Part shown: in pieces, positions 23,602 through 41,755 of the stretch
Layout: the number at the start of each line of letters is the position of its first letter
Position numbering within the stretch: position 1 is the stretch's first letter
Origin: an uncultured bacterium
GTDB lineage: Bacteria > Verrucomicrobiota > Verrucomicrobiia > Verrucomicrobiales > V1-33
Reading direction: 5' to 3'
Assembly (NCBI GenBank): GCA_903954065.1
Contig: CAJBME010000367.1
Location: 1,302 to 65,301, forward strand
DNA: 64,000 bases
Made by a program: the position numbers and the translations under genes
Notes under the pieces: model-generated
Seen by the model: the letters and a program-made list of their open reading frames with translations, nothing else
What the model was told of the DNA's origin: nothing
Database searches by the model: none

Positions 23602-24366
23602 ATGATGACGCGTGTTTATTTTCTTCTGTTGCTGTTGGCGGCGGCCCCGCTGAGCTGGGCTCAGGGAACGCCGGCGAAACCGTTGTCGGACAAGAAGCTC
23701 GCGGATTTTACGATTGGCGAGATTATTTCGGGTGATGCGGCCGGGGAGGAAGCGTTGCGAGGGAAGGTGGTGGCTTTGGAATTTTGGGGACGTTTGTGAG
23801 GCCCCTGCCTCGCCGGCATGCCGCAGTTGGCGGCAATGGATAAGCGCTATAAATCGAAGGGGTTGCGGTTAATCGGAGTTCACTCTCAGGGAGGTACGGA
23901 CGAGGAGATTTTGGTTCCGGTGAAAAAGAACAAGGCGAAGTATTCGATTGCGCGCAGCGGTCAAAGCCCTGTTCCGTTTAACGGGATCCCGCACATGTTT
24001 GTTTTTAATCCCAAAGGGGAGCTCGTGTATGACGGGCGAACCGGTGCGGATGCGGAAAAAGTCATCAAGCGGGAATTGCGTGGGGTGACGGCCTCGGGAG
24101 ACGATGACGATGAAGATAGTCCATTTGGGCCGAAGGAGCCGGCGGCCGCCGGTCCGTTGGTCCCCGAGCGCGCATGGACCAGCGCTGACGGCCGCACGAT
24201 GAAGGCGTCATTGATCTCGCTGAAAGATCAGACAGGCAGCTTTAAACGCACGGACGGACGGACCTTTGAGCTCGCTTTGGACAAACTTTCCCCAGCCGAT
24301 CAGGCCGTGGTCGCGGAGGCCGTCAAAAAAGCCGCGGCGACTTCTCCGCCTAAACCCGAGGATTGA
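23602..24366 (+). CDS. TlpA/ResA-like periplasmic thiol:disulfide oxidoreductase, candidate selenoprotein (Sec at codon 66, TGA 23797-23799), with C-terminal SHD1-like domain
   Basis: Track ORFs 23602..23799 and 23818..24366 are in the same frame (offset 216) with only a TGA between them. Read-through gives signal peptide + ...GKVVALEFWGRL-U-GPCLAGMPQLAAMDKRYKSKGLRLIGVHSQ...IPHMFVFNPKGELVY, the thioredoxin-fold W-C-G-P-C/..MP.L signature with UGA at the first Cys. The C-terminus AWTSADGRTMKASLISLKDQTGSFKRTDGRTFELALDKLSPADQ is SHD1-like. Confidence 0.7.
23817..23838 (+). promoter_or_regulatory. candidate bacterial SECIS-like stem-loop
   Basis: CATGCCGC (23817-23824) pairs with GCGGCA(A)TG (23830-23838): 8 bp with one bulged A. 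The apical loop is AGUUG, with G at loop position 2. The loop starts 26 nt after the UGA. Confidence 0.4.
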
Positions 24367-24422
24367 TGAATCCGACGAGTGGCGTCTGGGGAAGCCCGAC
24401 GCGTGGCGAAAAGCCCGACGGT

Positions 24423-25451
24423 TCAGGCCCGCGGGTGGGCTTTATCGTAGGCTTTTTTCATTCGTTCGATGGTGACGTGGGTGTAGATCTGGGTGGTGCT
24501 GAGGCTGGCATGACCGAGCAGTGACTGCACGGAGCGGAGGTCAGCGCCATTATCGAGCAGGTGGGTGGCGAAGCTGTGGCGCAGTTTGTGGGGGGTAGCG
24601 GGGATGGGTACGCCGCTGTGGAGCAGGTGTTTTTTCAGCAAGTCATTGACGGCGCGGGAGCTGAGGCGGCTGCGGCGTTTGCTGATGAAGAGTGGGCCGG
24701 TATGGACCCCGGCTTGCTGTCGGTATTCTTGAATGGCTTTGACGGCTGGGGGGCCGATGGGGCAGAGACGTTCTTTGCGACCCTTGCCGAGGACGCGGAC
24801 TGTGTCGCTGTAGGGATCGATGTGTTCGACGTGGAGGGCGACCAATTCGGAAAGTCGCAGGCCGGCGGAGTAGAAGAGTTCGAGGATGGCGGTATCGCGG
24901 GCGGCGGCCCAGGCGGGTGCTTGTTTGGATTTGGTGGTGGTGGCGGCTGGGGTGTCGAGCAGTGCACCCATTTGGTTGACGGTGAGGACGACGGGCAGTT
25001 TTTTCTCCAGTTTCGGGAGTTGCACGGCGAGCAGTGGGTTGACTGGCCATTTTTTCCGTCGGGACAGGAATGAATAGAAGCTGCGCAGGGCGGCGAAGTG
25101 GAGGCGGATGGTGGCGCGGCCGAGCTGTTGTTTCATTTGGGCGAACAGGTAGGCGCGAAAGTCATCGGCGGTGGCGTTTTCCCAGGAGGTGAAGCGCGGG
25201 GCGCGAGTGCGGCACGTCATCAATGCGTGTTGATAATTGATGAGCGTGCGGGGGGAGACATTGCGTTCGACCGAGAGGAACTCCATGAATTCCTCGACGA
25301 GCGGGTCCGGTTCGGGGGCGGATTCGACGGCGGAAGGGGCCGTTTCCGCGGTGGGGTCCGCGGTGGTGGCGGTGACGTCAGTTGGGGGCGGCGTTGGTGG
25401 CGGCGTCGGCACGGATGAAGGAATCGTGAGTGGTGGTGGAACGGGAGGCAA
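24423..25451 (-). CDS. XerC/XerD-family tyrosine recombinase
   Basis: SAM-like N-domain (FLSVERNVSPRTLINYQHAL...FYSFL). Catalytic domain ARDTAILELFYSAGLRLSELVAL...VLGKGRKER...HKLRHSFATHLLDNGADLRSVQSLLGHASLSTTQIYTHV contains the R..HxxR..Y residues. The ~60-aa Pro/Thr-rich N-terminal extension makes the start uncertain. Confidence 0.85.
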   Translation of the reverse strand: MPPVPPPLTIPSSVPTPPPTPPPTDVTATTADPTAETAPSAVESAPEPDPLVEEFMEFLSVERNVSPRTLINYQHALMTCRTRAPRFTSWENATADDFRAYLFAQMKQQLGRATIRLHFAALRSFYSFLSRRKKWPVNPLLAVQLPKLEKKLPVVLTVNQMGALLDTPAATTTKSKQAPAWAAARDTAILELFYSAGLRLSELVALHVEHIDPYSDTVRVLGKGRKERLCPIGPPAVKAIQEYRQQAGVHTGPLFISKRRSRLSSRAVNDLLKKHLLHSGVPIPATPHKLRHSFATHLLDNGADLRSVQSLLGHASLSTTQIYTHVTIERMKKAYDKAHPRA

Positions 25452-26156: not shown

Positions 26157-27659
26157 TTGAGTATGGATGGCACCTCTACATTCTCTTCATCGACGCGCCG
26201 GCATTTCCTCCATGGGGCGGCGGCGGGTGGTGTAGTGGTGGGGGTGGGAGGATTTTCGGCGGTTTCGCAGTGGTTTTTTCGGGGTCGAGAGGATGGAGGA
26301 GCGGGAGGGTTGGGGGTTTTTCAGCCGTCGCAGGCGGCGGAGGTGGATGAGGCGGCGCATGTGATTAACCGGCTGACCTTTGGGCCGGCCCCGGGTCAGC
26401 ATGCGATGGTGACGGCGATGGGGGCGCGGAATTTTGTCGAGGAGCAATTGGCTCCGGCGTTGATTGACGACGGGGCGGCTGAGCGGCGCAGTCGGCAATT
26501 TGAAGCCTTGGGGGCGTGGCCGGCCGGGGAATTATTGGAGCATGACCCGCGCGCGCTGCTGGATCAGTTGACGCGGGACAAGATTCATCGGGCGCATCAT
26601 TCCCGGCGCCAGCTTTTTGAGGTGATGGTCGATTTTTGGTCTGATCATTTTAATATTGATCCGTCGAAGGGGGACTCGAGGTGGTTGAAGCCGGTGGACG
26701 ATCGGCGGGTGATTCGCGCGCATGCCATGGGCAACTTTGCTGATTTGGTGCGGGCCTCGGCGTTGAGTCCGGCGATGCTTTGGTATCTGGACGGGCGCGA
26801 CAATCGGCTGGGGACGTCGCGGGAGCTACCCAACGAGAATTATGCCCGTGAATTGTTGGAGTTGCATACGCTGGGGGTGCATGGCGGTTACACGCAGCGC
26901 GATGTGATGGAGGTGGCGCGGTGTTTGAGTGGCTGGACGGTGCGGGCTCGCAGCGGGTCACGGATAGCGGTGGGGCGGGTTGAGTTTGAGGCGGCGCGGC
27001 ATGATGACGGATCGAAGGAGGTGTTGGGGACGGTGATCCCGGCGGGTTTGGGGCGCGGGGATTTGGACCGGGTGGTTGAGTTAGTGGCGCATCATCCGGC
27101 GACGGCGCGGCATGTGGCGTTCAAGTTGTGCCGTCGTTTTGTGGCGGACGACCCACCGGAGGCGGTGGTGGCGGCGGTGGCGCACGTTTTTTCTGAAAGC
27201 CGGGGTGACCTGCGGCGGACGTTGGCCGCGGTTTTCGGGCATGAGGCATTTTGGGCCTCTCGCGGTGGCAAGATCAAGCGGCCCTTTCATTTTGTGATTT
27301 CGGCCTTGCGGGCGACGGCGGCCCGCACGGATGCCGGGCGGGCGGTGCAGGATTATCTTTTGCGGATGGGGCATGCTCCTTTTCAGTATCCGGCGCCGGA
27401 CGGGTATCCTGAGGAGGCCCAGCCGTGGATGGCGACCTTGCTGTGGCGGTGGCGGTTTGCGGCGGAACTGGCGGCCAACGGCATCAAAGGCACGTCGCTT
27501 GATCCGGTGGGGTTGCGTGTGGCCGCTGGCGGTACGGAGGTGGCTTTGGCGGCGCATCTACTTGGCCGCCAACCGACTCCTGCGGAATTGGCGGCCGCGC
27601 AGAACTGCCCTTCACCCTTGGCCTTGCTACTGGCCAGCCCCGCTTTTCAAACGTGTTGA
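26157..27659 (+). CDS. DUF1800-family protein (Tat-type signal)
   Basis: RRHFLHGAAAGGVVVG Tat-like N-terminus. DUF1800 blocks FWSDHFNID...MLWYLDG..N.......PNENYARELLELHTLGVHGGYTQRDVMEVARCLSGWT. Typically paired with DUF1501. Confidence 0.85.
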   Translation: MSMDGTSTFSSSTRRHFLHGAAAGGVVVGVGGFSAVSQWFFRGREDGGAGGLGVFQPSQAAEVDEAAHVINRLTFGPAPGQHAMVTAMGARNFVEEQLAPALIDDGAAERRSRQFEALGAWPAGELLEHDPRALLDQLTRDKIHRAHHSRRQLFEVMVDFWSDHFNIDPSKGDSRWLKPVDDRRVIRAHAMGNFADLVRASALSPAMLWYLDGRDNRLGTSRELPNENYARELLELHTLGVHGGYTQRDVMEVARCLSGWTVRARSGSRIAVGRVEFEAARHDDGSKEVLGTVIPAGLGRGDLDRVVELVAHHPATARHVAFKLCRRFVADDPPEAVVAAVAHVFSESRGDLRRTLAAVFGHEAFWASRGGKIKRPFHFVISALRATAARTDAGRAVQDYLLRMGHAPFQYPAPDGYPEEAQPWMATLLWRWRFAAELAANGIKGTSLDPVGLRVAAGGTEVALAAHLLGRQPTPAELAAAQNCPSPLALLLASPAFQTC

Positions 27660-28807
27660 AACCAACGACTTCCTCTTCGGTGACTACCACCGCTCTTGTC
27701 TCTGCCGAGCGCGATCACGATCCGGCCTTGATTGTGGTTTTTTTGCGTGGCGGGGCGGATGGCCTTCATTTGGTGGTGCCGCATGGGGATGACGGTTATT
27801 ACCGGGCGCGGCCGTCGATCGGGCTGCGTCGGCGCGAGCTGGTGGATTTGGATGGTTTTTTTGGATTCAATGCGGGACTGGCTCCACTGCTGCCGTTGTG
27901 GAAGGAGGGGGTTTTGAGTATGGTGCACGGAGCGGGCAGCGAGGATGAAACGAGGTCGCATTTTGAGGCGCAGGATTTTATGGAGCATGGCGGGCTGGCG
28001 GCGGGCGGGTGGCTGGGCCGGTTTTTGCGGGTCCGTCCGGATATCGGTCATTCGCCGCTGACGGCGGTGGCGATTGGATCACAGCTACCGGAATGCCTGC
28101 GGGGAGCGCCGTCGTGTGCGGCTATGGAATCGATTTCCGACTTTGGACTGGGCCAGCATGTTCCGGAGAATTTTGCGGCGCAGTTGGCTTCGTTGTATGC
28201 GGAGGCGCCTGGGGCGCTGGGGCCAGCGGGGGCGAATGCGCTGGCGGCGCTGGGGCGGATAGAGTCGCTGCATGATGATGCGTACTCTCCGGAGCACGGG
28301 GCGGAGTATGGTGATGACGCCTTCAGTGGCGGGATGCGGCAGATCGCTCAGTTGGTCAAGGCGAAGGTCGGGCTGCAGGCAGCGGCGATCAGTCTGGGCG
28401 GGTGGGATTCGCATGTGACGCAGGCGGCGATCATGGACGGACCGATAAAACGGCTGGGGGTCGGGCTGGCGGCCTTGGTGCGTGATCTGGGGCCGGCTCG
28501 GCTGGCGCGGACGGCGGTGGTGGTCATGACGGAGTTTGGCCGGCGGGTAGGGGAGAATAGCGCCGGGGGAACGGACCATGGTTTAGGTGGGACCCTATTT
28601 TTCCTCGGTGGCGGGGTGACGGGCGGGCGCCTGCACGGCGAGTGGGAAGGGCTGGGATCGGAACTTTTGCAGGGCCCGGGCGATCTGCCGGTGCGTTATA
28701 ATTATCGCGATCTGCTGGCGCCGGTTTTGCGGCGGCAGGCCCCCGGGGTGGCGATGGATCAGGTATTTCCAGGGTATGTTTTCCGGCCGCTGGCTTCCCT
28801 TGGCTGA
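27653..28807 (+). CDS. DUF1501-family protein
   Basis: LIVVFLRGGADGLHLVVP...GGWDSH...VVVMTEFGRRVGENSAGGTDHGLGG. The GTG start at 27653 overlaps the DUF1800 stop (27657-27659) by 7 nt. Confidence 0.85.
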   Translation: MLKPTTSSSVTTTALVSAERDHDPALIVVFLRGGADGLHLVVPHGDDGYYRARPSIGLRRRELVDLDGFFGFNAGLAPLLPLWKEGVLSMVHGAGSEDETRSHFEAQDFMEHGGLAAGGWLGRFLRVRPDIGHSPLTAVAIGSQLPECLRGAPSCAAMESISDFGLGQHVPENFAAQLASLYAEAPGALGPAGANALAALGRIESLHDDAYSPEHGAEYGDDAFSGGMRQIAQLVKAKVGLQAAAISLGGWDSHVTQAAIMDGPIKRLGVGLAALVRDLGPARLARTAVVVMTEFGRRVGENSAGGTDHGLGGTLFFLGGGVTGGRLHGEWEGLGSELLQGPGDLPVRYNYRDLLAPVLRRQAPGVAMDQVFPGYVFRPLASLG

Positions 28808-28943: not shown

Positions 28944-29876
28944 TCAGCCGATCAGAGCGCGGGCCCAAGCGCCGAGGGCGATGCTACGGACGCGGCGGCG
29001 CGGCACTTTGACGGGAACGGTCATGCCGGCGGGGCCGGCGGCGACGATGAGGGTGAGAGTTTCTTCGGCGAGCCGGAGGGGGAGCCATTTGACGAAGCGG
29101 CTGCGCACGCCGCGGACGCCTTTGGTGTAGGCGCGGCCTTCGGCGAGGTGATCGCGGCATCGGGCGATCCAGGGCTGGGCTGCGGCCCATTTTTCATCGG
29201 CGGAGGCGGTGGCGTCGACGCCTGGCAAGTAGCTACGGCCGATGGCGGCGTCTTTGGAGACATCGCGGAGGACGTTGATGAGTTGGAGGCCTTTGCCGAA
29301 GCGGATGCCGCGTTCGATTAATTCATCGAGCGGGGCTTTGGCGAACGCGGGCATTTTGAGAGCGCTGAGCCGGGTCCAGAACTCGCCGACGCAGCCGGCG
29401 ACTTGGTAGGTGTAGAGGTCCAGTTCCTCGGCGGTGGTGATGCGGGTGCGGGTCACGTCGTCGCGCTGGCCGCTGATGATGGTTTCGAGGGCTTGGCGGA
29501 TCAGGGCGCGCTCAACTTCTGGCACGGCCCAGTACCAAGCCAGGATTTCGCCAAGTCGGTGCATGAGGGTGGCTTCACCGGGGGAAAGCCCGTGTTCAGC
29601 ATCCTCGACGACAGCCAGACCGCAGTCGATCATGCGCAAGCCCGCGCCCTCGCCGGTGAGGGCGGCTCGGGTCGCTTCGAGGGCGGCCAAACGGTCGACG
29701 ACCTCGAGGCGGCCGCTGTCGGCGAAGGTGTCGGCGGCGCGGGCCAGCAGATAGGCAAGCGACAGCGGTCCGCGTACCGGGGGGGGTAGAGCGCGAAGGC
29801 TGAGGTAAAATGATCGTGAGACGTCGCGCAGCAGGCCGCGCGCGTGTTGCTCCATCCATGGCAGGTCGACCGGCAC
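28944..29876 (-). CDS. squalene/phytoene synthase-family protein (HpnC/HpnD-like)
   Basis: SRSFYLSLRALPPPVRGPLSLAYLLARAADTFADS...YTYQVAGCVGEFWTRL...GLQLINVLRDVSKDAAIGRSYLP carries both Asp-rich-region contexts of trans-isoprenyl diphosphate synthase head-to-head enzymes. Confidence 0.8.
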   Translation of the reverse strand: MPVDLPWMEQHARGLLRDVSRSFYLSLRALPPPVRGPLSLAYLLARAADTFADSGRLEVVDRLAALEATRAALTGEGAGLRMIDCGLAVVEDAEHGLSPGEATLMHRLGEILAWYWAVPEVERALIRQALETIISGQRDDVTRTRITTAEELDLYTYQVAGCVGEFWTRLSALKMPAFAKAPLDELIERGIRFGKGLQLINVLRDVSKDAAIGRSYLPGVDATASADEKWAAAQPWIARCRDHLAEGRAYTKGVRGVRSRFVKWLPLRLAEETLTLIVAAGPAGMTVPVKVPRRRVRSIALGAWARALIG

Positions 29877-33623: not shown

Positions 33624-36600
33624 ATGATTGCGCTGATGTTTCGACGTTCGGCTGCTGCTTTGGTGGCGGCGGTGGTGGTGGTCTCGTCTGGAGGGGCGAA
33701 GGAACTGGAGGGGGTGTATCAACCGACGCCTGGGCCTTGTCCGACGGTGGCGGAGCAGATGGCCAAAGTGACGTTACCTCCGGGATATGCGCTGCGTTGT
33801 TTTGCCAGCGAGCCGATGGTGGTCAACCCGGTGGCGATGAGTTGGGATCACCGGGGCCGGCTGTGGGTGGTCGAGTTGTATGAGTATCCCTCGGGGGCGT
33901 CGAACCCGAACGATTATGCGAAGACGGCCACTGATGAGATGTTTCGACCCGTGATTAAGACGGGGGCTGGTTCTCCGCGCGACCGGGTTATTATTTTGGA
34001 AGATAGCGACAACGATGGGGTGGCTGACAAGCGCACGGTTTTTGTGGAGGGGTTGAGTTTGGCGACGGCGATTGTGTGTGGGCACGGCGGAGTTTTTGTG
34101 GGGCAGGCGCCCAACATGTTTTTTTTCCGTGATGTGGACGGCGACGATGTGGCTGACGAGTATAAGGCGGTATTGACGGGGTTTGGTTTAGAAGACCGGC
34201 ATGAATTATTAAACAGTTTCACGTGGGGGCCGGATGGACTGATGTATTTCACGCATGGCGTCTTCACGCACAGCCGGGTGCGTCGTCCCACTGACCCTGA
34301 GGGTGAAGGATTTACGTTGAATGCGGGGATTTACCGGGCCGCTTTCGGCCCGGCCCGGCCCGGTCGGCCGGCTCCCACGGTGGAGCGACATGAAGTCTTT
34401 TCTGATGGGACGAGCAATCCGTGGGGGTGTGACTATGATGCGGCTGGAAACTGGTTTGTGGAGGCGTGTGTGATTGATCATCTTTTTCACATGGCCCCGG
34501 GTGGATTGTATGCCCGGCAGGGCGGGGCCCCGGAGAATCCGTATGCCTATGATTTGCTACCGAGCATAGTGCCGGAGGATCATCCTCGGCATTTTCGGGC
34601 GGCCTATGCGGGGATCCAAGTTTATCAGGGAGGGGTGTATCCTGATGATACCCGCGGGCAGCTTTTTTTTGGCAACATTCATGACAATGCCATTCATGAA
34701 GAGCGGGTGGAGCCGGAGGGAGCGACCTTTAAAGCGCATGTCGTGCGCGATTTCTTGAGAGCCAACGATGGATGGTTTCGGCCGGTCAGCATTCAGACAG
34801 GTCCGGATGGATTTCTCTGGGTCATGGACTGGTGTGACAAATACCCCTGTTATCAAAATGCCCAAGCGAACCCTGAAGGAGTGGACCGCGAAAAAGGACG
34901 GATTTGGCGCGTGTGTTACGAGCCGGAGAGCCGTCCGGTGCCGGCCCACTGGCCGTCACGACCCGGAGCGGATATGGATTTGACGACGGTTCCGCCGGCG
35001 GTGCTGCTGGAGAACCTCGGGTCATCGAACAGCTGGTTGGTCCGGAATAGCCGCCAAACGATGATCGAGCAGCTGATGACCGGGAGTGGGGGCGATGAGC
35101 CAGCGGCCCGAGACGAGCTGCGCACCGGACTGTTGCGATTGGCGCGGGCGTCGGGCGACGGGTCATCGGCGCTGGAAGCGTTGCGGATATTGGGATCGAC
35201 GGAGTTTTGTGGTGGCGGGCTGGTGGCGGCGCGTGGGTTTTTCGGGGAAGTGCTGGAGGAGAGGCTGGGGCGAGCGGACGGGGACGGGGCGTTTGAGGTC
35301 GAGTGTCTACGGGCGTTGGCAGCGGTGGCGGCGGCTGACGGAGCGGCTGGCGGTTCCGGGGCGTTTTTGGCTGGGCTGGCGGCGGACGGGCCGTTCGGGC
35401 GGCTAGCGGACGATAGGCGAGCGAGCGTCCGGGCGGCGGTGGCCACTTGGATTCGGCAGGCGGGGGCGAAGAATCTGACGGTGAATCATGATGAAGAGGC
35501 TCATGATTTCACGCCGTGGCAGGAGCGTTTGATCAAGGCGAGCGCGGGGGCCGACCGCACGCTTGGTTTTCTTATTTGGCAGGGCATTGAGCCGGAGCTG
35601 GCGCTGGCGCCTGAGCGTTATGTGCCATGGTTGGCGGCATTGGCGCCGCAGACCAAGCCGCTTTCGGTGGGCTTGACGTACAAGATGATGCGTCGGCTTT
35701 GTGACACGCGGAAGCCAGAGGCGATTGATTTGGCGCTGAAGTTTCTGGATACGGTGGCGGGGGACGGCGACTTGGTGGCGACGGCGCTGGACGGGCTGGT
35801 CAAAGGCCAGGAGGCGGCAGCCATCAAGCCGACGATGGCGACCGAGGCGTATTTTGCCCGCTGGGCGGCGCACGAACGCGAGGATGTGCGCAACTTTTCG
35901 CAAAAGCTGGCGACCTTCTGGGGTGATGCCAATGCCATTGCCTCCCTGATGGCCAAGGCGCTTTCGGAAACAACGAGCCTGGAGGAACGCATCTCCGCCA
36001 TTCAGACGGTGCGAAAGTTGCGTGAGGAACGGGCCCGGGCCGGTATGGCTGCGTTACTCGAAATCAAGACACCGGATGCTTTGACCATCGAGGTTCTGCG
36101 CGCGGCGGCCGAGCTGGGCGGGCGCCATTTTCCCACTTTGATATTGAGGGCATGGCGGTTGTATCCGCCCGCCCTTCGGGCGACGGCGGCTGAAGTGTTG
36201 ACCTCACGGCCTGAGTGGGCGAGCCGCCTCTTGGACGCGGTGGAAGGCAAAGGGGTGACCTTTGGCGGATTTGATCCCGCCACTCTGCCGGTCACGGTGC
36301 GCCGGTATTTTGCCACGGCGGCGCCAGACGAAATCAAAGCCCGGGCTCAATCCCTGCTGGGCACATGGAACGAGACCGGGGGAGATGTGAAGGCGCTAAT
36401 CACCCGCAAACGCGCGGCGGCACTGACCGGGGAACCGGACCTCGAGAACGGAAAAGCTGTCTTCACGGCGACTTGCGCTACCTGCCATGTGTTTCATGGC
36501 GGCGGGCAGGCCGTCGGTCCGGAATTGATCGGCTCGGGCCGGTCGAGCCTCGACGCACTACTCAATAACATCATCAATCCCAACCAGATCATTGGCAACG

Positions 36601-37382
36601 GATACCAAAATATCGTCATTACCACCAAGGACGGTCGCACTTTGAGTGGAAGGATGACCGAAGACACGCCGACGCGCGTGCGCGTGCTGGGTATTGGCGC
36701 CCGCGAGGAAGTCGTGGCCCGGGATCAGATCGAGACCCTGCAGGACACCGGCGTCAGCCTGATGCCGGCGGGATTCGGGGAACTGCCGGATGAGATGATG
36801 CGTGACCTCGTCTGGTACTTGCTGGCGCCGCCCGAAGAAGGGCCGTTGACCTCGGAAAAGAAAGCCGCACTGGCTGCCCCGGTGACCGAACTCGCCGCGA
36901 CGGCGGCCGCCGTTCCTTCTGAAGAGGGCAACGACTTTCCGGAAGATGCTGCCCGCATCGACTGGGAAAGCGTCAGCCTCTGGCAACCCGATTGGAAAGT
37001 GGTGGCCCCCGAATTCGAGGGCACCCCGCGCAAACATATCGATTTCGAAGGCCGCAAAAACGTCCTGCAATTGCATCCGTTTCCGCCGCAGCCGGAGCGT
37101 CGTCCCGCCCGCCTGATTCGCACTCTCACCGTGCCCGCCGACGGGGAGCCGACCCTCACCTTCGAATGCGCCAGTCATGCGCTCGGCGACTGGGACCTCG
37201 TCGTCCAGATCAACGGAGAAATCGTGCAAAAAACTGTCATCGCCCCGGCTGATCAGCGATGGCATCAGCAGTCAGTCCCGCTGTCCCGCTGGCGCGGCCA
37301 GACCATCGAAATCAGCCTCGAAAATCATGCGAGCGCTTGGCTGTACGAGTTTTCTTATTGGGCAGAATTAACCCTTCGCTAG
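33624..37382 (+). CDS. PVC-type haem-binding CxxCH protein (membrane-bound dehydrogenase-like N-domain, HEAT-like repeats, cytochrome c domain)
   Basis: N-terminus LPPGYALRCFASEPMVVNPVAMSWDHRGRLWVVE...DSDNDGVADK, a long helical-repeat middle, and c-type haem motif GKAVFTATCATCHVFHGGGQAVGPELIG. Confidence 0.85.
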   Translation: MIALMFRRSAAALVAAVVVVSSGGAKELEGVYQPTPGPCPTVAEQMAKVTLPPGYALRCFASEPMVVNPVAMSWDHRGRLWVVELYEYPSGASNPNDYAKTATDEMFRPVIKTGAGSPRDRVIILEDSDNDGVADKRTVFVEGLSLATAIVCGHGGVFVGQAPNMFFFRDVDGDDVADEYKAVLTGFGLEDRHELLNSFTWGPDGLMYFTHGVFTHSRVRRPTDPEGEGFTLNAGIYRAAFGPARPGRPAPTVERHEVFSDGTSNPWGCDYDAAGNWFVEACVIDHLFHMAPGGLYARQGGAPENPYAYDLLPSIVPEDHPRHFRAAYAGIQVYQGGVYPDDTRGQLFFGNIHDNAIHEERVEPEGATFKAHVVRDFLRANDGWFRPVSIQTGPDGFLWVMDWCDKYPCYQNAQANPEGVDREKGRIWRVCYEPESRPVPAHWPSRPGADMDLTTVPPAVLLENLGSSNSWLVRNSRQTMIEQLMTGSGGDEPAARDELRTGLLRLARASGDGSSALEALRILGSTEFCGGGLVAARGFFGEVLEERLGRADGDGAFEVECLRALAAVAAADGAAGGSGAFLAGLAADGPFGRLADDRRASVRAAVATWIRQAGAKNLTVNHDEEAHDFTPWQERLIKASAGADRTLGFLIWQGIEPELALAPERYVPWLAALAPQTKPLSVGLTYKMMRRLCDTRKPEAIDLALKFLDTVAGDGDLVATALDGLVKGQEAAAIKPTMATEAYFARWAAHEREDVRNFSQKLATFWGDANAIASLMAKALSETTSLEERISAIQTVRKLREERARAGMAALLEIKTPDALTIEVLRAAAELGGRHFPTLILRAWRLYPPALRATAAEVLTSRPEWASRLLDAVEGKGVTFGGFDPATLPVTVRRYFATAAPDEIKARAQSLLGTWNETGGDVKALITRKRAAALTGEPDLENGKAVFTATCATCHVFHGGGQAVGPELIGSGRSSLDALLNNIINPNQIIGNGYQNIVITTKDGRTLSGRMTEDTPTRVRVLGIGAREEVVARDQIETLQDTGVSLMPAGFGELPDEMMRDLVWYLLAPPEEGPLTSEKKAALAAPVTELAATAAAVPSEEGNDFPEDAARIDWESVSLWQPDWKVVAPEFEGTPRKHIDFEGRKNVLQLHPFPPQPERRPARLIRTLTVPADGEPTLTFECASHALGDWDLVVQINGEIVQKTVIAPADQRWHQQSVPLSRWRGQTIEISLENHASAWLYEFSYWAELTLR

Positions 37383-37390
37383 CCGCCGGA

Positions 37391-37436
37391 CCACGCGGGA
37401 AAAACGAGCGTGGGGGCAAAGGGAAAAATAATGCCC
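37391..37436 (+). other. twin stem-loops, each displaying GGGAAAAA in the loop
   Basis: CCACGC (37391-96) pairs with GCGTGG (37408-13); loop GGGAAAAACGA. GGGCA (37414-18) pairs with TGCCC (37432-36); loop AAGGGAAAAATAA. It starts 9 nt after the stop of the haem-protein gene. Confidence 0.5.
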
Positions 37437-37550
37437 ACGTGGACATGTGCCATAATGACGCGTTTCCGATTGAAGTATAAGAAAATCTTATGCAAAAACA
37501 CCTAAATCGTGGCGGTTTCGACAAATTGCGGGGCTGGCGACGTTTTTTTC

Positions 37551-37578
37551 GTGACAGGTGGGGGGAATTTTTTTAAAT
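37551..37578 (+). promoter_or_regulatory. possible sigma70-like promoter of the LamG gene
   Basis: GTGACA (37551-56), 16-nt spacer, TTAAAT (37573-78), inside the AT-rich 250-nt spacer and about 55 nt upstream of the ATG at 37633. This is a pattern match only. Confidence 0.25.
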
Positions 37579-37632
37579 AAGAAGATTGTGGGTCGAAATG
37601 TTTTCGGCCCTGAGTCCCTCAACTATTGGCAT

Positions 37633-40600
37633 ATGAAAAAGCAATTTCTGGGTGTTTTAACACCTTTAATTCTTGGTCTATCCCCCGGCGTTTCGGCGGG
37701 GGATCTGATCGCATTTTGGAACTTTGATACTGTGAGCGATGGCATGGCGATTGACGCGCAAGCGGGCAATGTCGGCGTGCTTTTGAACGGTGCTCAATTC
37801 ACCAGTGCGGGCACGGGGCGGACCGGTACGGGGACGGACCGGGCGATGTTGTTTGGCAACGATCGTCACCGGATGCATGTCACGGACGCGTCGTTTTTGA
37901 ATGCGGCTGGCGAGGCCAATGCGCTTTCGATTTCGTTCTGGCAGAATTTGGCTGAGCTGCGCAACCAGACGACCTTTTTCGCGAATTCGGCGACAGTGCA
38001 GCGGGCGTTCAGCGCGCACACGCCGTGGAGCAACGGTACAATTTATTGGGACACGGCCGGCTGTTGTGATGAGGGCACGCAGCGGGTTTTTGTTGATCCG
38101 GGAGCGACTTGGCTTTCGACGTGGAATCACATTGTTTTGGTCAAGAGTGGCGATGCCAAAATCATCTATGTCAATGGTGTAGAGGTGCTTAACGGCGTCA
38201 ATACGGGCCCATTGCCAACCGACTTCACTGAGCTTTTCATTGGCAACTCGTCGAATCAAGCTGAAGCGGTGAGCGGTTCGTTGGATGATGTCGCTTTCTT
38301 CAAGCGCGAGCTGACGCCGGCGGAAGTGGCTAGTTTGGCAGGCGGCGCCAGTCCGGCGTCGATTGACCCACCGAATGACACCGACAGCGACGGATTGCCG
38401 GACGCGTGGGAGCTTCGTTTTGCGGCGGACCTGAATGTGTTGACGGCGACTGGCGATGCGGACAGCGACGGATTGGCCAATGCGGCTGAGTTTTCCGGAG
38501 CCACCAAACCGACCAGCAACGACACCGATGCTGACGGCTTCCTGGACGGGGTGGAAACCAAGACGGGGACTTGGGTGAGTGCCACGAATACAGGGACGAG
38601 CCCGGTTATCGCGGACACGGACGGCGACGGTCTCAAAGACGGCGCTGAGAATAATTCCGGTGTGTTTGTGAGTGTGACAGCTGCTGGCACCAACCCGTTG
38701 GTGATGGACACCGATGGTGACGGATTTGGCGACGGGGCAGAAGCCTTGTATAGCAGCGCGAATCCGACCAATGAGGCCTCGCGTCCGCTGCGTCCGGGTC
38801 TGCTCGACTTGTTGGCCTACTGGGATTTCAACAACGATGGCAATCCGACCGAAACGTTGGACAAAGTCCGGAATTTCCCGGGCACGTTGAAGGACGGCAC
38901 TCTTTATAGTGCGGATGCGGGCGGTCGCACGGGCCAGCCTGGCGACAAGGCGGTGGACATGGGTGCTGCCGGCAACAGCGGCACCGGGGTCATTGTGGAA
39001 GGCGGTGGCTTCTTGAATATTGCGGGTGCGCAAAACCAAGTGGCGATCTCGTTCTGGCAAAACCTCTCGGGTACGCCGGATTCGTCCTCGATGTATGCGC
39101 AGTCGGCGACGGTGGAGCGCGGCATCAATGTGCATTCTCCATGGTCGAATGGTAATATCTATTTTGACACGAGCGGCTGTTGCGATGGTGGCACACAGCG
39201 GATTGATGTTGCTGGTGGTCTGACGCCAGGGGTGTGGGAGCACGTGGTGTTGAACAAAAACGGCAACACCAAGGCCATCTGGGTCAATGGGGTGAAAATC
39301 AAAGAGGGTACCAATACTTCTCCTCTGGCGACGAATTTCACACGGTTCTTCATGGGTACCGATGGCGGTGCTTTGAATATGGCGGGCCTGATTGACGACG
39401 TCGCGGTCTATGCGGATGCGCTGACCGATGCGCAGATTGCTCAGCTTTTTGCCGGCACCAAGCCGAACGATCCGGCTTTGGTTCCGCCGAACACCGACTC
39501 TGACGGTGACGGTATGCAGGACGCTTACGAATTGGCCAACGGACTCAATCCGAATGTGGATGACCGTGCGGGCGACCTCGACACTGACGGATTGACGAAC
39601 CTCACCGAATTCAACCTCGGCACGCTTCCGAACAATGCGGACAGCGACAGTGACACCCTCAAAGATGGTGTGGAAACGAAGACCGGCACTTGGGTCAGTG
39701 CGACCAATACCGGAACGGATCCATTGAAAGCAGACACCGATGGCGATGCCTTGGCCGACGCCGTGGAAACGAATACCGGCGCTTTTGTCAGCCTGACCAA
39801 TACCGGCACCGATCCGAATAAGGGCGACACTGACGGCGACAAATGGCCTGATTTGACCGAAATCCAGTGGCCTTCGAATCCTGCACTCAAGTCATCCGTG
39901 CCAGCTCTGGACTCGGCTAAGCTTGATCTCCTTGCTTATTGGGATTTCAACGACAACTCCAGCCCTAAAACGGCTCGGGATCTTCAGCACGGTTTTGAAG
40001 CCAATTTCTTTGGTGATGCGACCGCGTTCTCTGATGGTGGACTGGGAGCTAGCGGTGCTGCGACCGATCGCGCGCTGGACCTCGGTGTGGCGGGTGGCAA
40101 CAATGGTGCGCATGTCAGCGGAGCCAAGTGGTTTGGTCTGGGCGTGCCGAAGGGCAAGGTGATGAGCAACCTTGGTTCTTTGGGTGAAGATGGCGATATG
40201 CGTCCGGGTGCGGGTGTGTTCGGGGTGCCAGGTGCACTCACGGGCAGCACGGACACGGCGATCAACTTGCCATCCGTCCTCAATACCGCGGTGCCCTACA
40301 ATAGTGCCTTAAATCCGTCAGGTGCTTGGACGGCGGAAGCGTGGGTCAACCCAGCCGCAGCCAATCCAGCTGGTACACTGACCTGCGTCCTGTCCTCCGG
40401 CGACTTTGCGGCTCCACGTAAGGGGTGGCTGATCTATCAAAGCGACACCGGTTGGAACCTGCGGACATATTACAGCGATGGTCTGGCCACCGCGGTTAAC
40501 ATCACGGGTGATAACGGGGCGGCTCCGACGCCCGGAGCTTGGACCCATCTCGTCGCTTCATGGGACGGCACGGTGGCTCGGCTTTATGTCGACGGTGTGC

Positions 40601-41586
40601 TGCGTGTGACCAGCGATCCGAAGCCTTATGTGGCGGGTGTAGCTGGCGGATTTGCGGTCGGCTCACGTGCGGATGCTGGCTTTGCCTGGAACGGTGATGC
40701 GGACGAAGTGGCCTTCTACAACACGGCTCTTTCTGACGCGGTCATCCTTGATCACTACAACAACGCCAAAGCGGCCGCGCCCGCTCAGCCGTACAACGCC
40801 CTCGTGCTTGCTTCTAATCCAGTGGGTTACTGGCGCATGACGGACTCGACTCCTGGCGATGTGCCGCCTGATCAGGTGGCCGTCTCTTTCTGGCAGAAGC
40901 TGGATGCGACCAGTGATAGCAGCGCCTTCTGGGCTTCTTCCCCGAGCAGCAGCTCCAATGAGCGCGGTTTCCAGGCGCACGCGCCATGGTCCAACGGCAA
41001 CATCTACTTCGACACGGCCGGGTGTTGCGCTTCACCGGCGCAGCGTTTGGAAGGTCCGGGTGAAGCGGTGGTCGGCGAGTGGCAGCACTTCGTCTTCCAA
41101 AAGAATGGTGGCAGCAAACAAGTCTGGCGCGATGGCACCATGATTCTCTCCGGAGAAGATGCCGCCACCCTGCCGAACGACTTCACTCGTCTGACCATCG
41201 GCGCTGAACCCGCCGGATCCGGCGGTGTCAATGCCACTCGCGGTTTGATCGATGAATTCGCCGTCTTCGGCGAAGCCCTCACTGAAGCGCAGATTCAGCG
41301 GCTGGCCGCTGGCGAAAGCGCCAAGTCCTTGGTGGGTGGTGGTGGCACCCCGATTGAGTTCACCTCGGTGAGCTACGATCCAGCCACCAATCAGTTGACG
41401 CTGACTTGGAAATCCCAGCCCGGCAGCACCTACACGCTGCAAGCGTCTCAGACGCTTCGCACTTGGCCACTCGAGTTGAACGATAACATCGCCTCCGGCG
41501 GCGCTACGACAACCTTCACGCACACTGTGACCAACTTGCCTGGTGCTGCGCCCGCTCTCTTCTACCGCGTAAAGCAGAATCCATAA
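37633..41586 (+). CDS. secreted multi-LamG (concanavalin-like lectin) protein with thrombospondin type-3-like Ca-binding repeats
   Basis: Signal peptide MKKQFLGVLTPLILGLSPGVSAG. Three paralogous LamG-like modules share ..SFWQ.L...(R/S)..F.AH.PWSNG.IY.DT.GCC...QR. One canonical Laminin_G_3 domain (WTAEAWVNP...WTHLVASWDGTVARLYVDGV...DEVAFYNTALS) is present. DxDxDG repeats (DTDSDGLPDAWE, DTDGDGLKDGAE, DTDGDALADAVE) occur throughout. C-terminal ~80-aa beta domain ...FYRVKQNP. Confidence 0.8.
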   Translation: MKKQFLGVLTPLILGLSPGVSAGDLIAFWNFDTVSDGMAIDAQAGNVGVLLNGAQFTSAGTGRTGTGTDRAMLFGNDRHRMHVTDASFLNAAGEANALSISFWQNLAELRNQTTFFANSATVQRAFSAHTPWSNGTIYWDTAGCCDEGTQRVFVDPGATWLSTWNHIVLVKSGDAKIIYVNGVEVLNGVNTGPLPTDFTELFIGNSSNQAEAVSGSLDDVAFFKRELTPAEVASLAGGASPASIDPPNDTDSDGLPDAWELRFAADLNVLTATGDADSDGLANAAEFSGATKPTSNDTDADGFLDGVETKTGTWVSATNTGTSPVIADTDGDGLKDGAENNSGVFVSVTAAGTNPLVMDTDGDGFGDGAEALYSSANPTNEASRPLRPGLLDLLAYWDFNNDGNPTETLDKVRNFPGTLKDGTLYSADAGGRTGQPGDKAVDMGAAGNSGTGVIVEGGGFLNIAGAQNQVAISFWQNLSGTPDSSSMYAQSATVERGINVHSPWSNGNIYFDTSGCCDGGTQRIDVAGGLTPGVWEHVVLNKNGNTKAIWVNGVKIKEGTNTSPLATNFTRFFMGTDGGALNMAGLIDDVAVYADALTDAQIAQLFAGTKPNDPALVPPNTDSDGDGMQDAYELANGLNPNVDDRAGDLDTDGLTNLTEFNLGTLPNNADSDSDTLKDGVETKTGTWVSATNTGTDPLKADTDGDALADAVETNTGAFVSLTNTGTDPNKGDTDGDKWPDLTEIQWPSNPALKSSVPALDSAKLDLLAYWDFNDNSSPKTARDLQHGFEANFFGDATAFSDGGLGASGAATDRALDLGVAGGNNGAHVSGAKWFGLGVPKGKVMSNLGSLGEDGDMRPGAGVFGVPGALTGSTDTAINLPSVLNTAVPYNSALNPSGAWTAEAWVNPAAANPAGTLTCVLSSGDFAAPRKGWLIYQSDTGWNLRTYYSDGLATAVNITGDNGAAPTPGAWTHLVASWDGTVARLYVDGVLRVTSDPKPYVAGVAGGFAVGSRADAGFAWNGDADEVAFYNTALSDAVILDHYNNAKAAAPAQPYNALVLASNPVGYWRMTDSTPGDVPPDQVAVSFWQKLDATSDSSAFWASSPSSSSNERGFQAHAPWSNGNIYFDTAGCCASPAQRLEGPGEAVVGEWQHFVFQKNGGSKQVWRDGTMILSGEDAATLPNDFTRLTIGAEPAGSGGVNATRGLIDEFAVFGEALTEAQIQRLAAGESAKSLVGGGGTPIEFTSVSYDPATNQLTLTWKSQPGSTYTLQASQTLRTWPLELNDNIASGGATTTFTHTVTNLPGAAPALFYRVKQNP

Positions 41587-41645
41587 TGTATCATAGCCCA
41601 TGGCTCCATGTTCTCATGGGGCCATGAAGCGATGAACTCTTCCGG

Positions 41646-41683
41646 CCCGCCGCCACCCTTCAGGGAGGCGGCGGGTTTTTTTT
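41646..41683 (+). terminator. rho-independent terminator of the LamG gene
   Basis: CCCGCCGCC-A-CCCT-TC-AGGG-A-GGCGGCGGG followed by TTTTTTTT, about 60 nt after the stop. Confidence 0.85.
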
Positions 41684-41755
41684 GCGGTATGGGATAGAAG
41701 CCCCGATTTACCCTCTGCGGTGTTCCTTCAGAACTCACCTTTTCTCCTTTCTTGT

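What the first reader, a model, noticed from the sequence alone, without database searches (positions are those of the whole stretch)
23602..24366. In-frame UGA at the first Cys of the CxxC motif of a TlpA-like oxidoreductase: candidate selenoprotein that the ORF track splits in two
ORF 23602..23799 encodes a signal peptide then ...LRGKVVALEFWGRL and stops at TGA 23797-23799. The same frame continues with no other stop (GPCLAG) into ORF 23818..24366; 23818-23602 = 216 = 72 codons. The joined product reads ...VVALEFWGRL-U-GPCLAGMPQLAAMDKRYKSKGLRLIGVHSQ...IPHMFVFNPKGELVY. This is the F-W-x-x-W-C-G-P-C / ..MP.L / ..GV.. / P..F..D..G layout of periplasmic TlpA/ResA/AhpC-TSA thioredoxin-fold proteins, with the UGA exactly at the nucleophilic Cys. 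Neither half is a credible protein alone: the first has no redox motif, and the second lacks both the signal peptide and the first strand-helix of the fold. UGA replacing the attacking Cys of a UxxC/CxxC redox motif is the established hallmark of thioredoxin-fold selenoproteins. The protein also carries a C-terminal SHD1-like module (AWTSADGRTMKASL...DGRTFELALDKLSPADQ), an unusual fusion for this family. Standard gene callers would annotate two fragments or a pseudogene.
Basis: partly seen in the sequence, partly recalled or inferred. Interest (0 to 1): 0.85.

Follow-up and report, generated by a model that had tools for sequence, protein, structure and literature searches.

The report
Split selenoprotein gene, TlpA-like oxidoreductase
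One 254-residue gene for an exported thioredoxin-fold (TlpA/ResA-like) redox enzyme has been read as two fragments because its catalytic residue is almost certainly selenocysteine encoded by an in-frame UGA; this is a well-supported but fairly ordinary new member of a known class of bacterial selenoproteins.

Summary
A single TGA (23797-23799) joins ORFs 23602..23799 and 23818..24366 in one frame. It sits at the first Cys of a WxxxCGPC thioredoxin-fold motif.

Evidence that it is a selenocysteine codon:
- It is not a pseudogene or a sequencing error. The same TGA is present in 15 distinct homologous genes (39-98% protein identity) from Verrucomicrobiales and Planctomycetes assemblies.
- The exact 65-aa N-terminal half of the window gene occurs on 192 public contigs.
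- Five related genes carry TGC (Cys) at that codon.
- dN/dS is 0.03-0.19 on both sides of the TGA, with dS at or above 1.
- TGA is otherwise the commonest true stop in the window (18 of 33 genes), and it ends this gene too.
- A hairpin 20 nt downstream (UGCCGC-AGUUG-GCGGCA) meets the published bacterial SECIS constraints. Synonymous recodings do so only 3-13% of the time.
- Synonymous sites are unusually conserved in codons +1 to +13 (p=0.0055).

The C-terminal module is SHD1-like: its best PDB fold match is Sla1 SHD1.

Not shown: selA, selB, selC and selD.

The gene belongs to the known "Prx-like/TlpA-like UxxC" selenoprotein class, so its novelty is modest. Public databases annotate it as two hypothetical proteins.

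The parts
23602..24366 (+). Complete selenoprotein gene: 254 codons including one Sec codon, plus the stop
   Evidence: single frame, with one internal TGA; full-length Cys homologues of 250-258 aa align end to end.
23602..23661 (+). Predicted Sec-type signal peptide (MMTRVYFLLLLLAAAPLSWA | QG); inferred
   Evidence: Read directly from the sequence. Equivalent hydrophobic N-termini are present in all homologues. There was no signal-peptide predictor, so this is inference.
23689..24096 (+). Thioredoxin-fold (TlpA/ResA/DsbE-like) domain, about residues 30-165
   Evidence: Pfam. PDB sequence hits 28db, 3gl3 and ResA. The AF2 model of the 65%-identical Cys orthologue P0009 has pLDDT above 94 here and matches ResA/DsbE with TM 0.68-0.76.
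23794..23796 (+). Leu codon UUG immediately 5' of the UGA. It is invariant in the 10 close Sec-form genes and is replaced by Asn AAC/AAT in every Cys form.
23797..23799 (+). In-frame UGA, proposed selenocysteine codon (U66)
   Evidence: Conserved in 15 distinct genes. TGC in 5 related genes.
23797..23808 (+). U-G-P-C redox motif (UxxC); the resolving Cys69 is at 23806-23808
   Evidence: In the AF2 model of the Cys orthologue the motif sits at the N-terminus of helix 67-86.
23819..23835 (+). Candidate bacterial SECIS upper hairpin: stem TGCCGC / GCGGCA (23819-23824 and 23830-23835), loop AGTTG (23825-23829). A possible lower stem extends it to 23813-23839.
   Evidence: It meets the published bSECIS constraints (spacing 25 nt, loop 5 nt with G then U, 6-bp stem, -9.8 to -13 kcal/mol); the synonymous null passes 3.3% of the time. 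Synonymous-site conservation covers codons +1 to +13. The identical hairpin is kept in L016, at 42% protein identity.
24097..24159 (+). Acidic, probably disordered linker (…GVTASGDDDDEDSPFGPKEPAAAGPL)
   Evidence: pLDDT is below 50 for the equivalent residues 168-186 of P0009. It is length-variable among homologues.
24160..24339 (+). SHD1-like small beta-barrel plus C-terminal helix
   Evidence: Pfam SHD1 is sub-threshold: 15.8 bits for the window and 22.0 for P0009, against a cut-off of 23.7. The AF2 model of window residues 180-254 has pLDDT 81.6. The best PDB fold match is 2hbp, Sla1 SHD1: TM 0.74, rmsd 1.2 A over 55 columns.
24364..24369 (+). True terminator: TGA followed directly by a second in-frame TGA
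   Evidence: It shows that TGA is read as stop at the end of this same mRNA.

Best explanation
Window 23602-24366 is one gene for an exported, TlpA/ResA-like thioredoxin-fold thiol:disulfide oxidoreductase. Its N-terminal active-site residue is selenocysteine (U-G-P-C), encoded by UGA 23797-23799.

Inferred mechanism of decoding: during translation, SelB carrying Sec-tRNA(Sec) is recruited by a SECIS hairpin inside the coding sequence (23819-23835, loop AGUUG). This hairpin starts 20 nt after the UGA, so the ribosome inserts Sec instead of terminating. The UGA UGA at 24364-24369 has no such hairpin and terminates normally.

Inferred function: the signal peptide sends the protein across the inner membrane. 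There the selenolate of U66 attacks substrate disulfides and Cys69 resolves the selenenyl-sulfide. The enzyme would be re-reduced by a DsbD/CcdA-type membrane reductase, as for TlpA, ResA and CcmG.

An acidic flexible linker ties the catalytic domain to a C-terminal SHD1-like beta-barrel, which probably binds a partner or substrate peptide.

Shown here: the conserved UGA at the Cys column, selection on both halves, the fold, the SECIS-like hairpin with its synonymous constraint, and the SHD1 fold. Inferred: actual Sec insertion, export, substrate, and the role of SHD1.
For: 1. The TGA is in frame and at the first Cys of CGPC.
2. The TGA sits at the identical column in 15 distinct genes (39-98% identity). 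Ten are Verrucomicrobiales-type EFWGRL*GPCL, three are E[FY]WGTR*GPCL, L016 is DYWGRS*GPCI, and Planctomycetes L017/L018 are ENWGKS*GPCM with a different C-terminal domain.
3. Five related genes have TGC. They nest inside Sec clades at three or more places. One Sec/Cys pair is 91.4% identical in DNA.
4. dN/dS is 0.03-0.19 for the 40 codons upstream of the TGA and 0.06-0.18 downstream, with dS at or above 1 and no other stops or frameshifts.
5. The exact 65-aa half is on 192 contigs from NCBI, JGI, ENA and Logan, which excludes a read error.
6. TGA ends 18 of 33 Pfam-supported genes in the window and ends this gene too, which excludes a reassigned code.
7. The hairpin fulfils the published bSECIS rules (PMC13188914, Fig. 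2 legend). 13 of 15 Sec genes pass and 1 of 5 Cys genes pass; synonymous recodings pass 3-13% of the time.
8. Three sequence-unrelated hairpins, all with GUU in the loop, occur at +25 to +33 nt in three divergent clades. In Planctomycetes the AGUUG loop lies in a different codon phase.
9. Codon entropy at amino-acid-invariant sites is 0.39 in codons +1 to +13 against 0.96 elsewhere, p=0.0055.
10. The thioredoxin fold is confirmed by sequence and structure.
Against: - No selA, selB, selD or tRNA-Sec was found. Only the 64-kb window and about 190 kb of related loci could be searched, so the Sec-decoding trait of this organism is unproven.
- Hairpin stability alone is not better than synonymous recodings of the same peptide (fraction at least as stable 0.07-0.39).
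- There are no compensatory base-pair changes within the close clade.
- Two Sec genes (L004, L007) fail the strict SECIS rules because of a bulged-U variant.
- RNAalifold prefers an alternative stem in the close clade.
- One Cys-form gene (L026) keeps the hairpin. That is expected for a recent switch, but it also shows that the hairpin is partly imposed by the peptide MPQLAA.
- No Rfam SECIS family matches.
Confidence: 0.88

Rival explanations
1. Pseudogene: a nonsense mutation inactivated an ordinary Cys-type TlpA-like gene, and the two ORFs are decaying remnants.
For: Gene callers split the gene, and databases list both halves as hypothetical proteins.
Against: The same TGA at the same codon occurs in 15 distinct genes down to 39% identity and in two phyla. 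dN/dS is 0.03-0.19 on both sides while synonymous sites are saturated. There is no second stop or frameshift in any copy.
Confidence: 0.01
2. The UGA is read through or recoded, but not as selenocysteine. Possible routes are near-cognate Trp, Cys or Arg insertion, or a tRNA(Cys)-like UCA suppressor. The product would be a sulfur or otherwise substituted enzyme, made in an organism without canonical Sec machinery.
For: Sec machinery was not found in the DNA available. The energy of the SECIS-like hairpin is not exceptional.
Against: The position is the catalytic Cys of a redox motif, the classic Sec/Cys exchange site. Repeated TGA<->TGC switches occur in the tree. The hairpin meets the bSECIS rules, with GU in the apical loop at the right distance, and is under synonymous constraint. 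Sec machinery and selenoproteins are documented in Planctomycetes, the phylum of homologues L017/L018 (PMC4807772).
Confidence: 0.07
3. Genome-wide reassignment of UGA to a sense codon (Trp or Gly), as reported for a few reduced bacterial genomes, including a verrucomicrobial lineage (PMC13462651 abstract).
For: UGA-to-Trp recoding is reported within the phylum Verrucomicrobiota (PMC13462651).
Against: TGA terminates 18 of 33 Pfam-supported genes in this window, against TAA 11 and TAG 4. Read-through of those TGAs gives no conserved extensions. This gene itself ends in TGA TGA. The aligned residue in homologues is Cys, not Trp or Gly. The window is about 60% G+C and has the gene content of a free-living organism.
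Confidence: 0.01
4. Two genuine separate genes: a 65-residue secreted peptide, and a 182-residue cytoplasmic protein starting at Met73.
For: An ATG (23818) lies 18 nt after the TGA in every close homologue, so callers always find a second start.
Against: Pfam and PDB alignments span the junction. The 18-nt 'spacer' encodes GPCLAG, conserved at the amino-acid level with synonymous variation in P and L codons. The downstream piece would lack the CxxC motif's first residue, strand beta-1 and the signal peptide. The Met is part of the conserved MP motif also present in Cys forms.
Confidence: 0.03

Closest known systems
'Prx-like thiol:disulfide oxidoreductase' selenoprotein family (pfam00578, UxxC/UxxU; e.g. 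Geobacter sulfurreducens WP_010940744.1) and GOS 'Prx-like 1 / Prx-like 3' (PMC1794560, PMC2398784, PMC9312934, PMC13188914)
   Same: Thioredoxin-fold AhpC-TSA/Redoxin domain. Sec is at the first position of a UxxC motif. Cys homologues are far more numerous. The family was predicted by the same Sec/Cys-pair plus SECIS logic. GOS already reported fusions of Prx-like 3 with unknown domains.
   Different: Direct sequence relatedness to the published exemplars was not tested here. This clade has the motif WGR(L)-U-GPC, a signal peptide and a C-terminal SHD1-like domain, and it comes from Verrucomicrobiales and Planctomycetes. No NCBIfam selenoprotein model recognises it, and databases list it as two hypothetical proteins.
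ResA (Bacillus subtilis), TlpA (Bradyrhizobium), CcmG/DsbE: extracytoplasmic thiol-disulfide reductases
   Same: The fold matches (Foldseek TM 0.68-0.76 to 1st9, 1su9, 4nmu and 3gl3). It also has a CxxC-type motif at the N-terminus of helix 1, a conserved cis-Pro loop (GIP, P130 invariant), and export.
   Different: It is not an orthologue. NCBIfam ResA scores 42.5 bits against a cut-off of 170, and TlpA 23.9 against 230. It has Sec instead of Cys, an extra SHD1-like domain, and no linkage to cytochrome c maturation or Sco/Cox genes in the window.
PDB 28db 'Redoxin domain protein'
   Same: It is the best solved-structure relative by sequence (E=7.6e-14, residues 36-148). It shares WG-x-x-C-x-PC, MP-L, the GxHSQ motif and GxPH.
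   Different: It has Cys (WGINCPPC), is 161 residues long, and the match covers no SHD1 domain.
UGC-containing TlpA family / ResA-like WAxxUGC selenoproteins (NF041054; cd02966)
   Same: These are TlpA-like fold selenoproteins.
   Different: They have a different motif (UGC rather than UGPC). NF041054 scores only 14.5 bits against a cut-off of 300.
Escherichia coli fdhF-type bacterial SECIS (consensus model of Zhang & Gladyshev as summarised in PMC13188914)
   Same: A stem-loop inside the coding region downstream of UGA, with a small apical loop carrying G then U, spacing within 16-37 nt, and MFE at or below -7.5.
   Different: There is no primary-sequence similarity. The GU lies at +30/31 from the U of the UGA, against +23/24 in fdhF (the fdhF figure is from my own knowledge). 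Binding to SelB is untested.
Sla1 homology domain 1 (SHD1, PF03983; PDB 2hbp)
   Same: It is the best structural match of the C-terminal 75 residues: TM 0.74, rmsd 1.2 A, 25% identity. The Pfam alignment covers positions 11-64 of the 67-position model.
   Different: It is below the Pfam gathering score (15.8 bits against 23.7). It is a bacterial periplasmic context rather than yeast endocytic NPFxD binding, and its ligand is unknown.

Membership tests
Bacterial selenoprotein (UGA decoded as Sec) | In-frame UGA that aligns with Cys in homologues | tested here: met
   U66 aligns with the first Cys of CGPC in P0009, P0010, P0011, P0013, P0018 and P0026.
Bacterial selenoprotein (UGA decoded as Sec) | UGA conserved among orthologues, with coding selection on both sides | tested here: met
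   15 distinct genes carry the TGA. dN/dS is 0.03-0.19 upstream and 0.06-0.18 downstream.
Bacterial selenoprotein (UGA decoded as Sec) | [quoted passage not shown] | tested here: met
   The window hairpin 23819-23835 passes. 13 of 15 Sec genes pass. The synonymous null passes 3-13% of the time. Synonymous constraint is present. Energy alone is not significant.
Bacterial selenoprotein (UGA decoded as Sec) | selA, selB, selD and tRNA-Sec present in the same genome | not testable with these tools
   None were found in the window or in 251 kb of held DNA.
Bacterial selenoprotein (UGA decoded as Sec) | Selenium physically present in the protein | not testable with these tools
   This needs 75Se labelling or mass spectrometry.
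Prx-like / TlpA-like thioredoxin-fold thiol:disulfide oxidoreductase (pfam00578 / pfam08534, UxxC) | Pfam AhpC-TSA / Redoxin / Thioredoxin_8 at or above the gathering score | tested here: met
   26.4 bits (cut-off 26), 28.2 (cut-off 26.6) and 31.1 (cut-off 27), with U replaced by C.
Prx-like / TlpA-like thioredoxin-fold thiol:disulfide oxidoreductase (pfam00578 / pfam08534, UxxC) | Thioredoxin fold with the CxxC/UxxC motif at the N-terminus of helix 1 and a conserved cis-Pro loop | tested here: met
   The AF2 model of the Cys orthologue P0009 has pLDDT above 94, and a helix starts at residue 67, right after C66. Foldseek gives ResA/DsbE at TM 0.68-0.76. P130 in GIP is invariant.
ResA / TlpA equivalogs (NCBIfam NF002854, NF047696) | Score above the curated cut-off | tested here: not met
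   42.5 bits against 170, and 23.9 against 230. The relationship is at superfamily level only.
ResA-like WAxxUGC selenoprotein (NF041054) | Score above the cut-off and a UGC motif | tested here: not met
   14.5 bits against 300. The motif here is UGPC.
SHD1 domain (PF03983) | Pfam gathering score | tested here: inconclusive
   15.8 bits for the window and 22.0 for P0009, against a cut-off of 23.7. The alignment covers nearly the whole model.
SHD1 domain (PF03983) | SHD1 fold | tested here: met
   the top PDB hit is 2hbp (Sla1 SHD1), TM 0.74, rmsd 1.2 A. The Foldseek E-value is only 1.5e-3.

The most novel reading that the evidence does not exclude
The codon immediately 5' of the redox residue is obligatorily coupled to the Sec/Cys state. 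Every Sec gene has UUG(Leu), CGG/AGG(Arg) or AGC/UCC(Ser) before UGA, and every close Cys gene has AAC/AAU(Asn) before UGC. A 91%-identical Sec/Cys pair differs by 4 of 6 nt exactly there.

If this reflects a 5'-context rule for UGA-Sec decoding in PVC bacteria, or a chemical requirement (Asn needed to activate the thiol but not the selenol), it would be a new and testable determinant of Sec/Cys interconversion. The SHD1 module would in addition define a previously undescribed targeting mode for a periplasmic selenoenzyme.
Probability: 0.2. Interest if true: 0.55.

Novelty: new member of a known kind. Interest (0 to 1): 0.4.

Why it matters
- **Annotation.** A widespread gene is split into two 'hypothetical proteins' in NCBI, JGI, ENA and Logan. 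The exact halves occur on 32-192 contigs, and at least 21 clusters at 90% identity are truncated the same way. Recognising it as one selenoprotein corrects the annotation.
- **Selenium biology.** It marks these freshwater and environmental Verrucomicrobiales, and some Planctomycetes, as probable selenium users. It also adds an exported UxxC enzyme to their redox toolkit.
- **A system for studying Sec/Cys exchange.** The family offers closely matched natural Sec/Cys pairs (91% DNA identity). These could be used to study why Sec is retained and how SECIS elements embedded in coding sequence constrain protein evolution.
- **Limits.** It does not open a new category. TlpA/Prx-like UxxC selenoproteins have been known since 2005-2008.

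Tried and rejected
- **Hairpin free energy against synonymous recodings of the same peptide.** Not significant: the fraction at least as stable was 0.07-0.39. Stability alone is therefore no argument, and I replaced it with the published rule-based test and a synonymous-site conservation test.
- **Whole-segment fold against dinucleotide shuffles.** z = -0.53, uninformative.
- **Rfam.** No hit at gathering level over the window. A permissive search around the site gave only chance-level hits, none of them a SECIS family.
- **RNAalifold on 11 close genes.** It found no compensatory pairs and preferred an alternative 10-bp stem with loop AUGCCSCA. That stem tolerates the C/T polymorphism but is broken in L016 and does not fit the bSECIS loop rule. 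I kept it as an unresolved alternative.
- **tRNA-Sec.** ARAGORN found nothing in the window or in 21 loci.
- **Sec machinery genes.** tblastn with E. coli SelA, SelB and SelD against all 251 kb of held DNA gave no hits. Pfam annotation of about 40 window ORFs found no sel genes. All of this is uninformative about the genome as a whole.
- **Other in-frame TGA candidates in the window.** The scan returned 219 candidates and my redox filter was too loose. Nothing convincing turned up besides 23797.
- **Literature on Sec machinery in Verrucomicrobia.** Nothing specific was found. Planctomycetes are documented Sec users.
- **Structure prediction of the window protein with U replaced by C.** I used the 65%-identical Cys orthologue P0009 as a proxy and the exact window C-terminus.
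- **A SelA/SelB search of the 5.8-billion-protein collection.** I did not run it. An E. coli query would retrieve proteobacterial sequences and say nothing about this genome.
Full report
**1. Observation.**
ORF 23602..23799 (65 aa) ends at TGA 23797-23799. ORF 23818..24366 (182 aa) is in the same frame. The 18 intervening bases encode GPCLAG with no further stop. The joined product reads MMTRVYFLLLLLAAAPLSWAQG…KVVALEFWGRL-U-GPCLAGMPQLAAMDKRY….

With U written as C, the product passes the Pfam gathering thresholds for Thioredoxin_8, Redoxin and AhpC-TSA. The matched stretches run across the TGA. The gene's real terminator is also TGA, followed directly by a second TGA (24364-24369).

**2. Relatives.**
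A search of the 5.8-billion-protein collection gave 34 homologues. About 21 clusters are fragments of roughly 183 aa that all begin at MPQL. This is the signature of a gene caller restarting after a stop. Six full-length proteins (250-291 aa) read EFWGRNCGPCL, with Cys at the column of the window's TGA.

I fetched the DNA behind these proteins and scanned genome and metagenome collections. In-frame TGA at exactly this codon is present in 15 distinct genes:
- ten Verrucomicrobiales-type genes (EFWGRL*GPCL), including MAG LJ.21 at 98% identity;
- three genes with E[FY]WGTR*GPCL (about 40-45% identity);
- L016 with DYWGRS*GPCI (42%);
- two Planctomycetes MAGs, L017 and L018, which share one sequence around the site: ENWGKS*GPCM (39-40%), with a different C-terminal domain.

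Five related genes carry TGC.

The exact 65-aa and 182-aa halves of the window gene are in public databases as separate 'hypothetical proteins', on 192 and 32 contigs respectively. The TGA is therefore not a read error.

**3. Excluding the trivial explanations.**
- *Pseudogene.* Nei-Gojobori dN/dS among TGA-bearing genes is 0.03-0.19 for the 40 codons upstream and 0.06-0.18 for the thioredoxin core downstream. dS is at or above 1, and no copy has a second stop or a frameshift.
- *Reassigned genetic code.* TGA terminates 18 of 33 Pfam-supported genes in the window (TAA 11, TAG 4), and it terminates this gene too.
- *Two separate genes.* Domain and PDB alignments span the junction. The 'spacer' GPCLAG is conserved as protein while its Pro and Leu codons vary synonymously.

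**4. RNA signal.**
Twenty nucleotides after the UGA lies the hairpin UGCCGC-AGUUG-GCGGCA (23819-23835).

Its stability alone is unremarkable. Synonymous recodings of the same peptide fold as well 7-39% of the time, and the segment's z-score against shuffles is -0.53.

It does satisfy all four published constraints of the bacterial SECIS model, quoted from the Fig. 2 legend of PMC13188914:
- loop of 3-9 nt;
- upper stem of at least 4 bp;
- G in the first two loop positions, followed by G or U;
- 16-37 nt spacing from the UGA;
- MFE at or below -7.5 kcal/mol.

Only 3.3% of synonymous recodings of the window peptide satisfy them, and 3-13% for the other clades. By contrast 13 of 15 Sec genes pass and 1 of 5 Cys genes passes.

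Three divergent clades use three unrelated stems, each presenting GUU in the loop, 25-33 nt after the UGA:
- UGCCGC/GCGGCA (the window and L016);
- CCAUCUG/CAGAUGG (L014, L015, L023);
- CCUGGCC/GGUCAGG (the Planctomycetes genes).

In the Planctomycetes genes the AGUUG loop is read in a different codon phase (AGU UGG rather than CAG UUG).

Independently, among the ten close Sec genes the synonymous sites of codons +1 to +13 are abnormally conserved. Mean codon entropy is 0.39 against 0.96 elsewhere. Five of nine columns are invariant, against 7% elsewhere (Mann-Whitney p=0.0055).

Caveats:
- there are no compensatory pairs within the close clade;
- RNAalifold prefers an alternative stem there;
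- L004 and L007 carry a bulged-U variant that fails the strict rules;
- the closest Cys gene, L026, still has the hairpin;
- Rfam has no matching family.

**5. Sec/Cys dynamics.**
I built a neighbour-joining tree with the U/C column and the -1 column masked. It places Cys genes inside Sec clades at three or more points.

L020 (Sec) and L026 (Cys) are 91.4% identical in DNA. In this region they differ only by TTG TGA against AAC TGC, which is 4 of 6 nucleotides inside an otherwise identical stretch of about 70 nt.

Across all genes examined, Asn precedes Cys, while Leu, Arg or Ser precedes Sec, without exception. Within the close clade the Leu codon is always UUG, while the neighbouring Arg uses all four CGN codons. 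I did not explain this coupling.

**6. The protein.**
It folds with pLDDT above 94 into a thioredoxin-fold domain. The CGPC motif sits at the N-terminus of a long helix.

Its best structural matches are ResA, DsbE-like and other extracytoplasmic thiol-disulfide oxidoreductases, at TM 0.68-0.76. By sequence, the closest solved chain is 28db, 'Redoxin domain protein' (E=7.6e-14), followed by DsbE and ResA.

It is not an orthologue of ResA or TlpA: the NCBIfam scores are far below the cut-offs. No NCBIfam selenoprotein model fits it.

After an acidic, low-confidence linker comes a compact domain of four strands plus a helix. The window's own residues 180-254 model at pLDDT 81.6. Their best PDB match is Sla1 SHD1 (2hbp): TM 0.74, rmsd 1.2 A, 25% identity. 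This agrees with a sub-threshold, near full-length Pfam SHD1 hit.

The N-terminus reads as a Sec-type signal peptide. This is inferred from the sequence only.

**7. Context.**
The window looks like a free-living PVC-group bacterium. It carries type II secretion genes, BamA, LpxD, PSCyt/PSD1, DUF1501 and DUF1800.

The gene stands alone. A XerC-like recombinase converges on it (24423-25451, minus strand). The order pseudopilin, this gene, XerC-like recombinase, squalene synthase is shared with L006 and L007.

No cytochrome-maturation, Sco or DsbD genes are nearby, so the substrate is unknown.

**8. What is missing.**
Sec machinery could not be assessed. There is no tRNA-Sec and no SelA, SelB or SelD in 251 kb of held DNA. 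The collection scans were exhausted. The literature documents full Sec machinery in several Planctomycetes (PMC4807772), but I found nothing specific for Verrucomicrobiales.

**9. Comparison with what is known, and verdict.**
UxxC selenoproteins with AhpC-TSA/Redoxin thioredoxin folds are established families that were predicted by exactly this kind of evidence. Examples are 'Prx-like thiol:disulfide oxidoreductase', GOS 'Prx-like 1/3', 'thiol:disulfide interchange protein' and UGC-type TlpA proteins (PMC1794560, PMC2398784, PMC9312934, PMC13188914).

The present gene is best described as a new, unannotated member, or sub-clade, of that class. Its distinguishing features are the SHD1-like tail and its PVC-group distribution.

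I put 0.88 on genuine Sec decoding. The interest is moderate, at 0.4. The most interesting loose end is the strict coupling of the -1 codon to the Sec/Cys state.

Noticed in passing
window 23794-23799, and the equivalent sites in L001-L029: The codon before the redox residue covaries perfectly with Sec or Cys. It is Asn (AAC/AAT) before TGC in all 5 Cys genes, and Leu UUG, Arg or Ser before TGA in all Sec genes. A Sec/Cys pair that is 91.4% identical in DNA (L020 and L026) differs by TTGTGA against AACTGC within an otherwise identical stretch of about 70 nt. The cause is unknown: decoding context, active-site chemistry, or short-patch recombination.
   Followed up: partly
window 1-64000: There is a very strong positive GC skew on the + strand: 0.17-0.33 in most 2-kb bins, irrespective of gene orientation. 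It falls to about 0 at roughly 36-46 kb and 60-62 kb. Overall G+C is about 0.60. This is unusually large for a bacterium.
   Followed up: no
L017 324-674 and L018 2079-2429 (Planctomycetes MAGs): The same UxxC thioredoxin-fold selenoprotein core (ENWGKS*GPCM) is fused to a different C-terminal region of about 190 residues, Ala/Lys-rich and apparently helical, instead of SHD1. The whole ORF is 339 aa. The core is therefore combined with different C-terminal modules.
   Followed up: no
window 26157-28807, compared with L006 and L007: A DUF1800/DUF1501 gene pair lies between the XerC-like recombinase (24423-25451) and squalene synthase (28944-29876). In L006 and L007 those two genes are adjacent. 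This may be a local insertion next to a tyrosine recombinase gene.
   Followed up: no
window 33624-45381: There is a block of large PVC-typical genes on the + strand: DUF7133 with cytochrome c (1252 aa), a 1342-aa Laminin_G_3 protein, PSCyt1/PSCyt2/PSD1, and DUF1501. It coincides with the region where the GC skew collapses to about 0.
   Followed up: no
window 23813-23850 (alignment A4, columns 22-51): RNAalifold proposes an alternative 10-bp stem, UGCC..GCCGGC / GUUGGY GGCA, with an 8-nt loop AUGCCSCA. It accommodates the C/T polymorphism as G-C or G-U, but it is disrupted in L016. Which structure forms in vivo is unresolved.
   Followed up: partly
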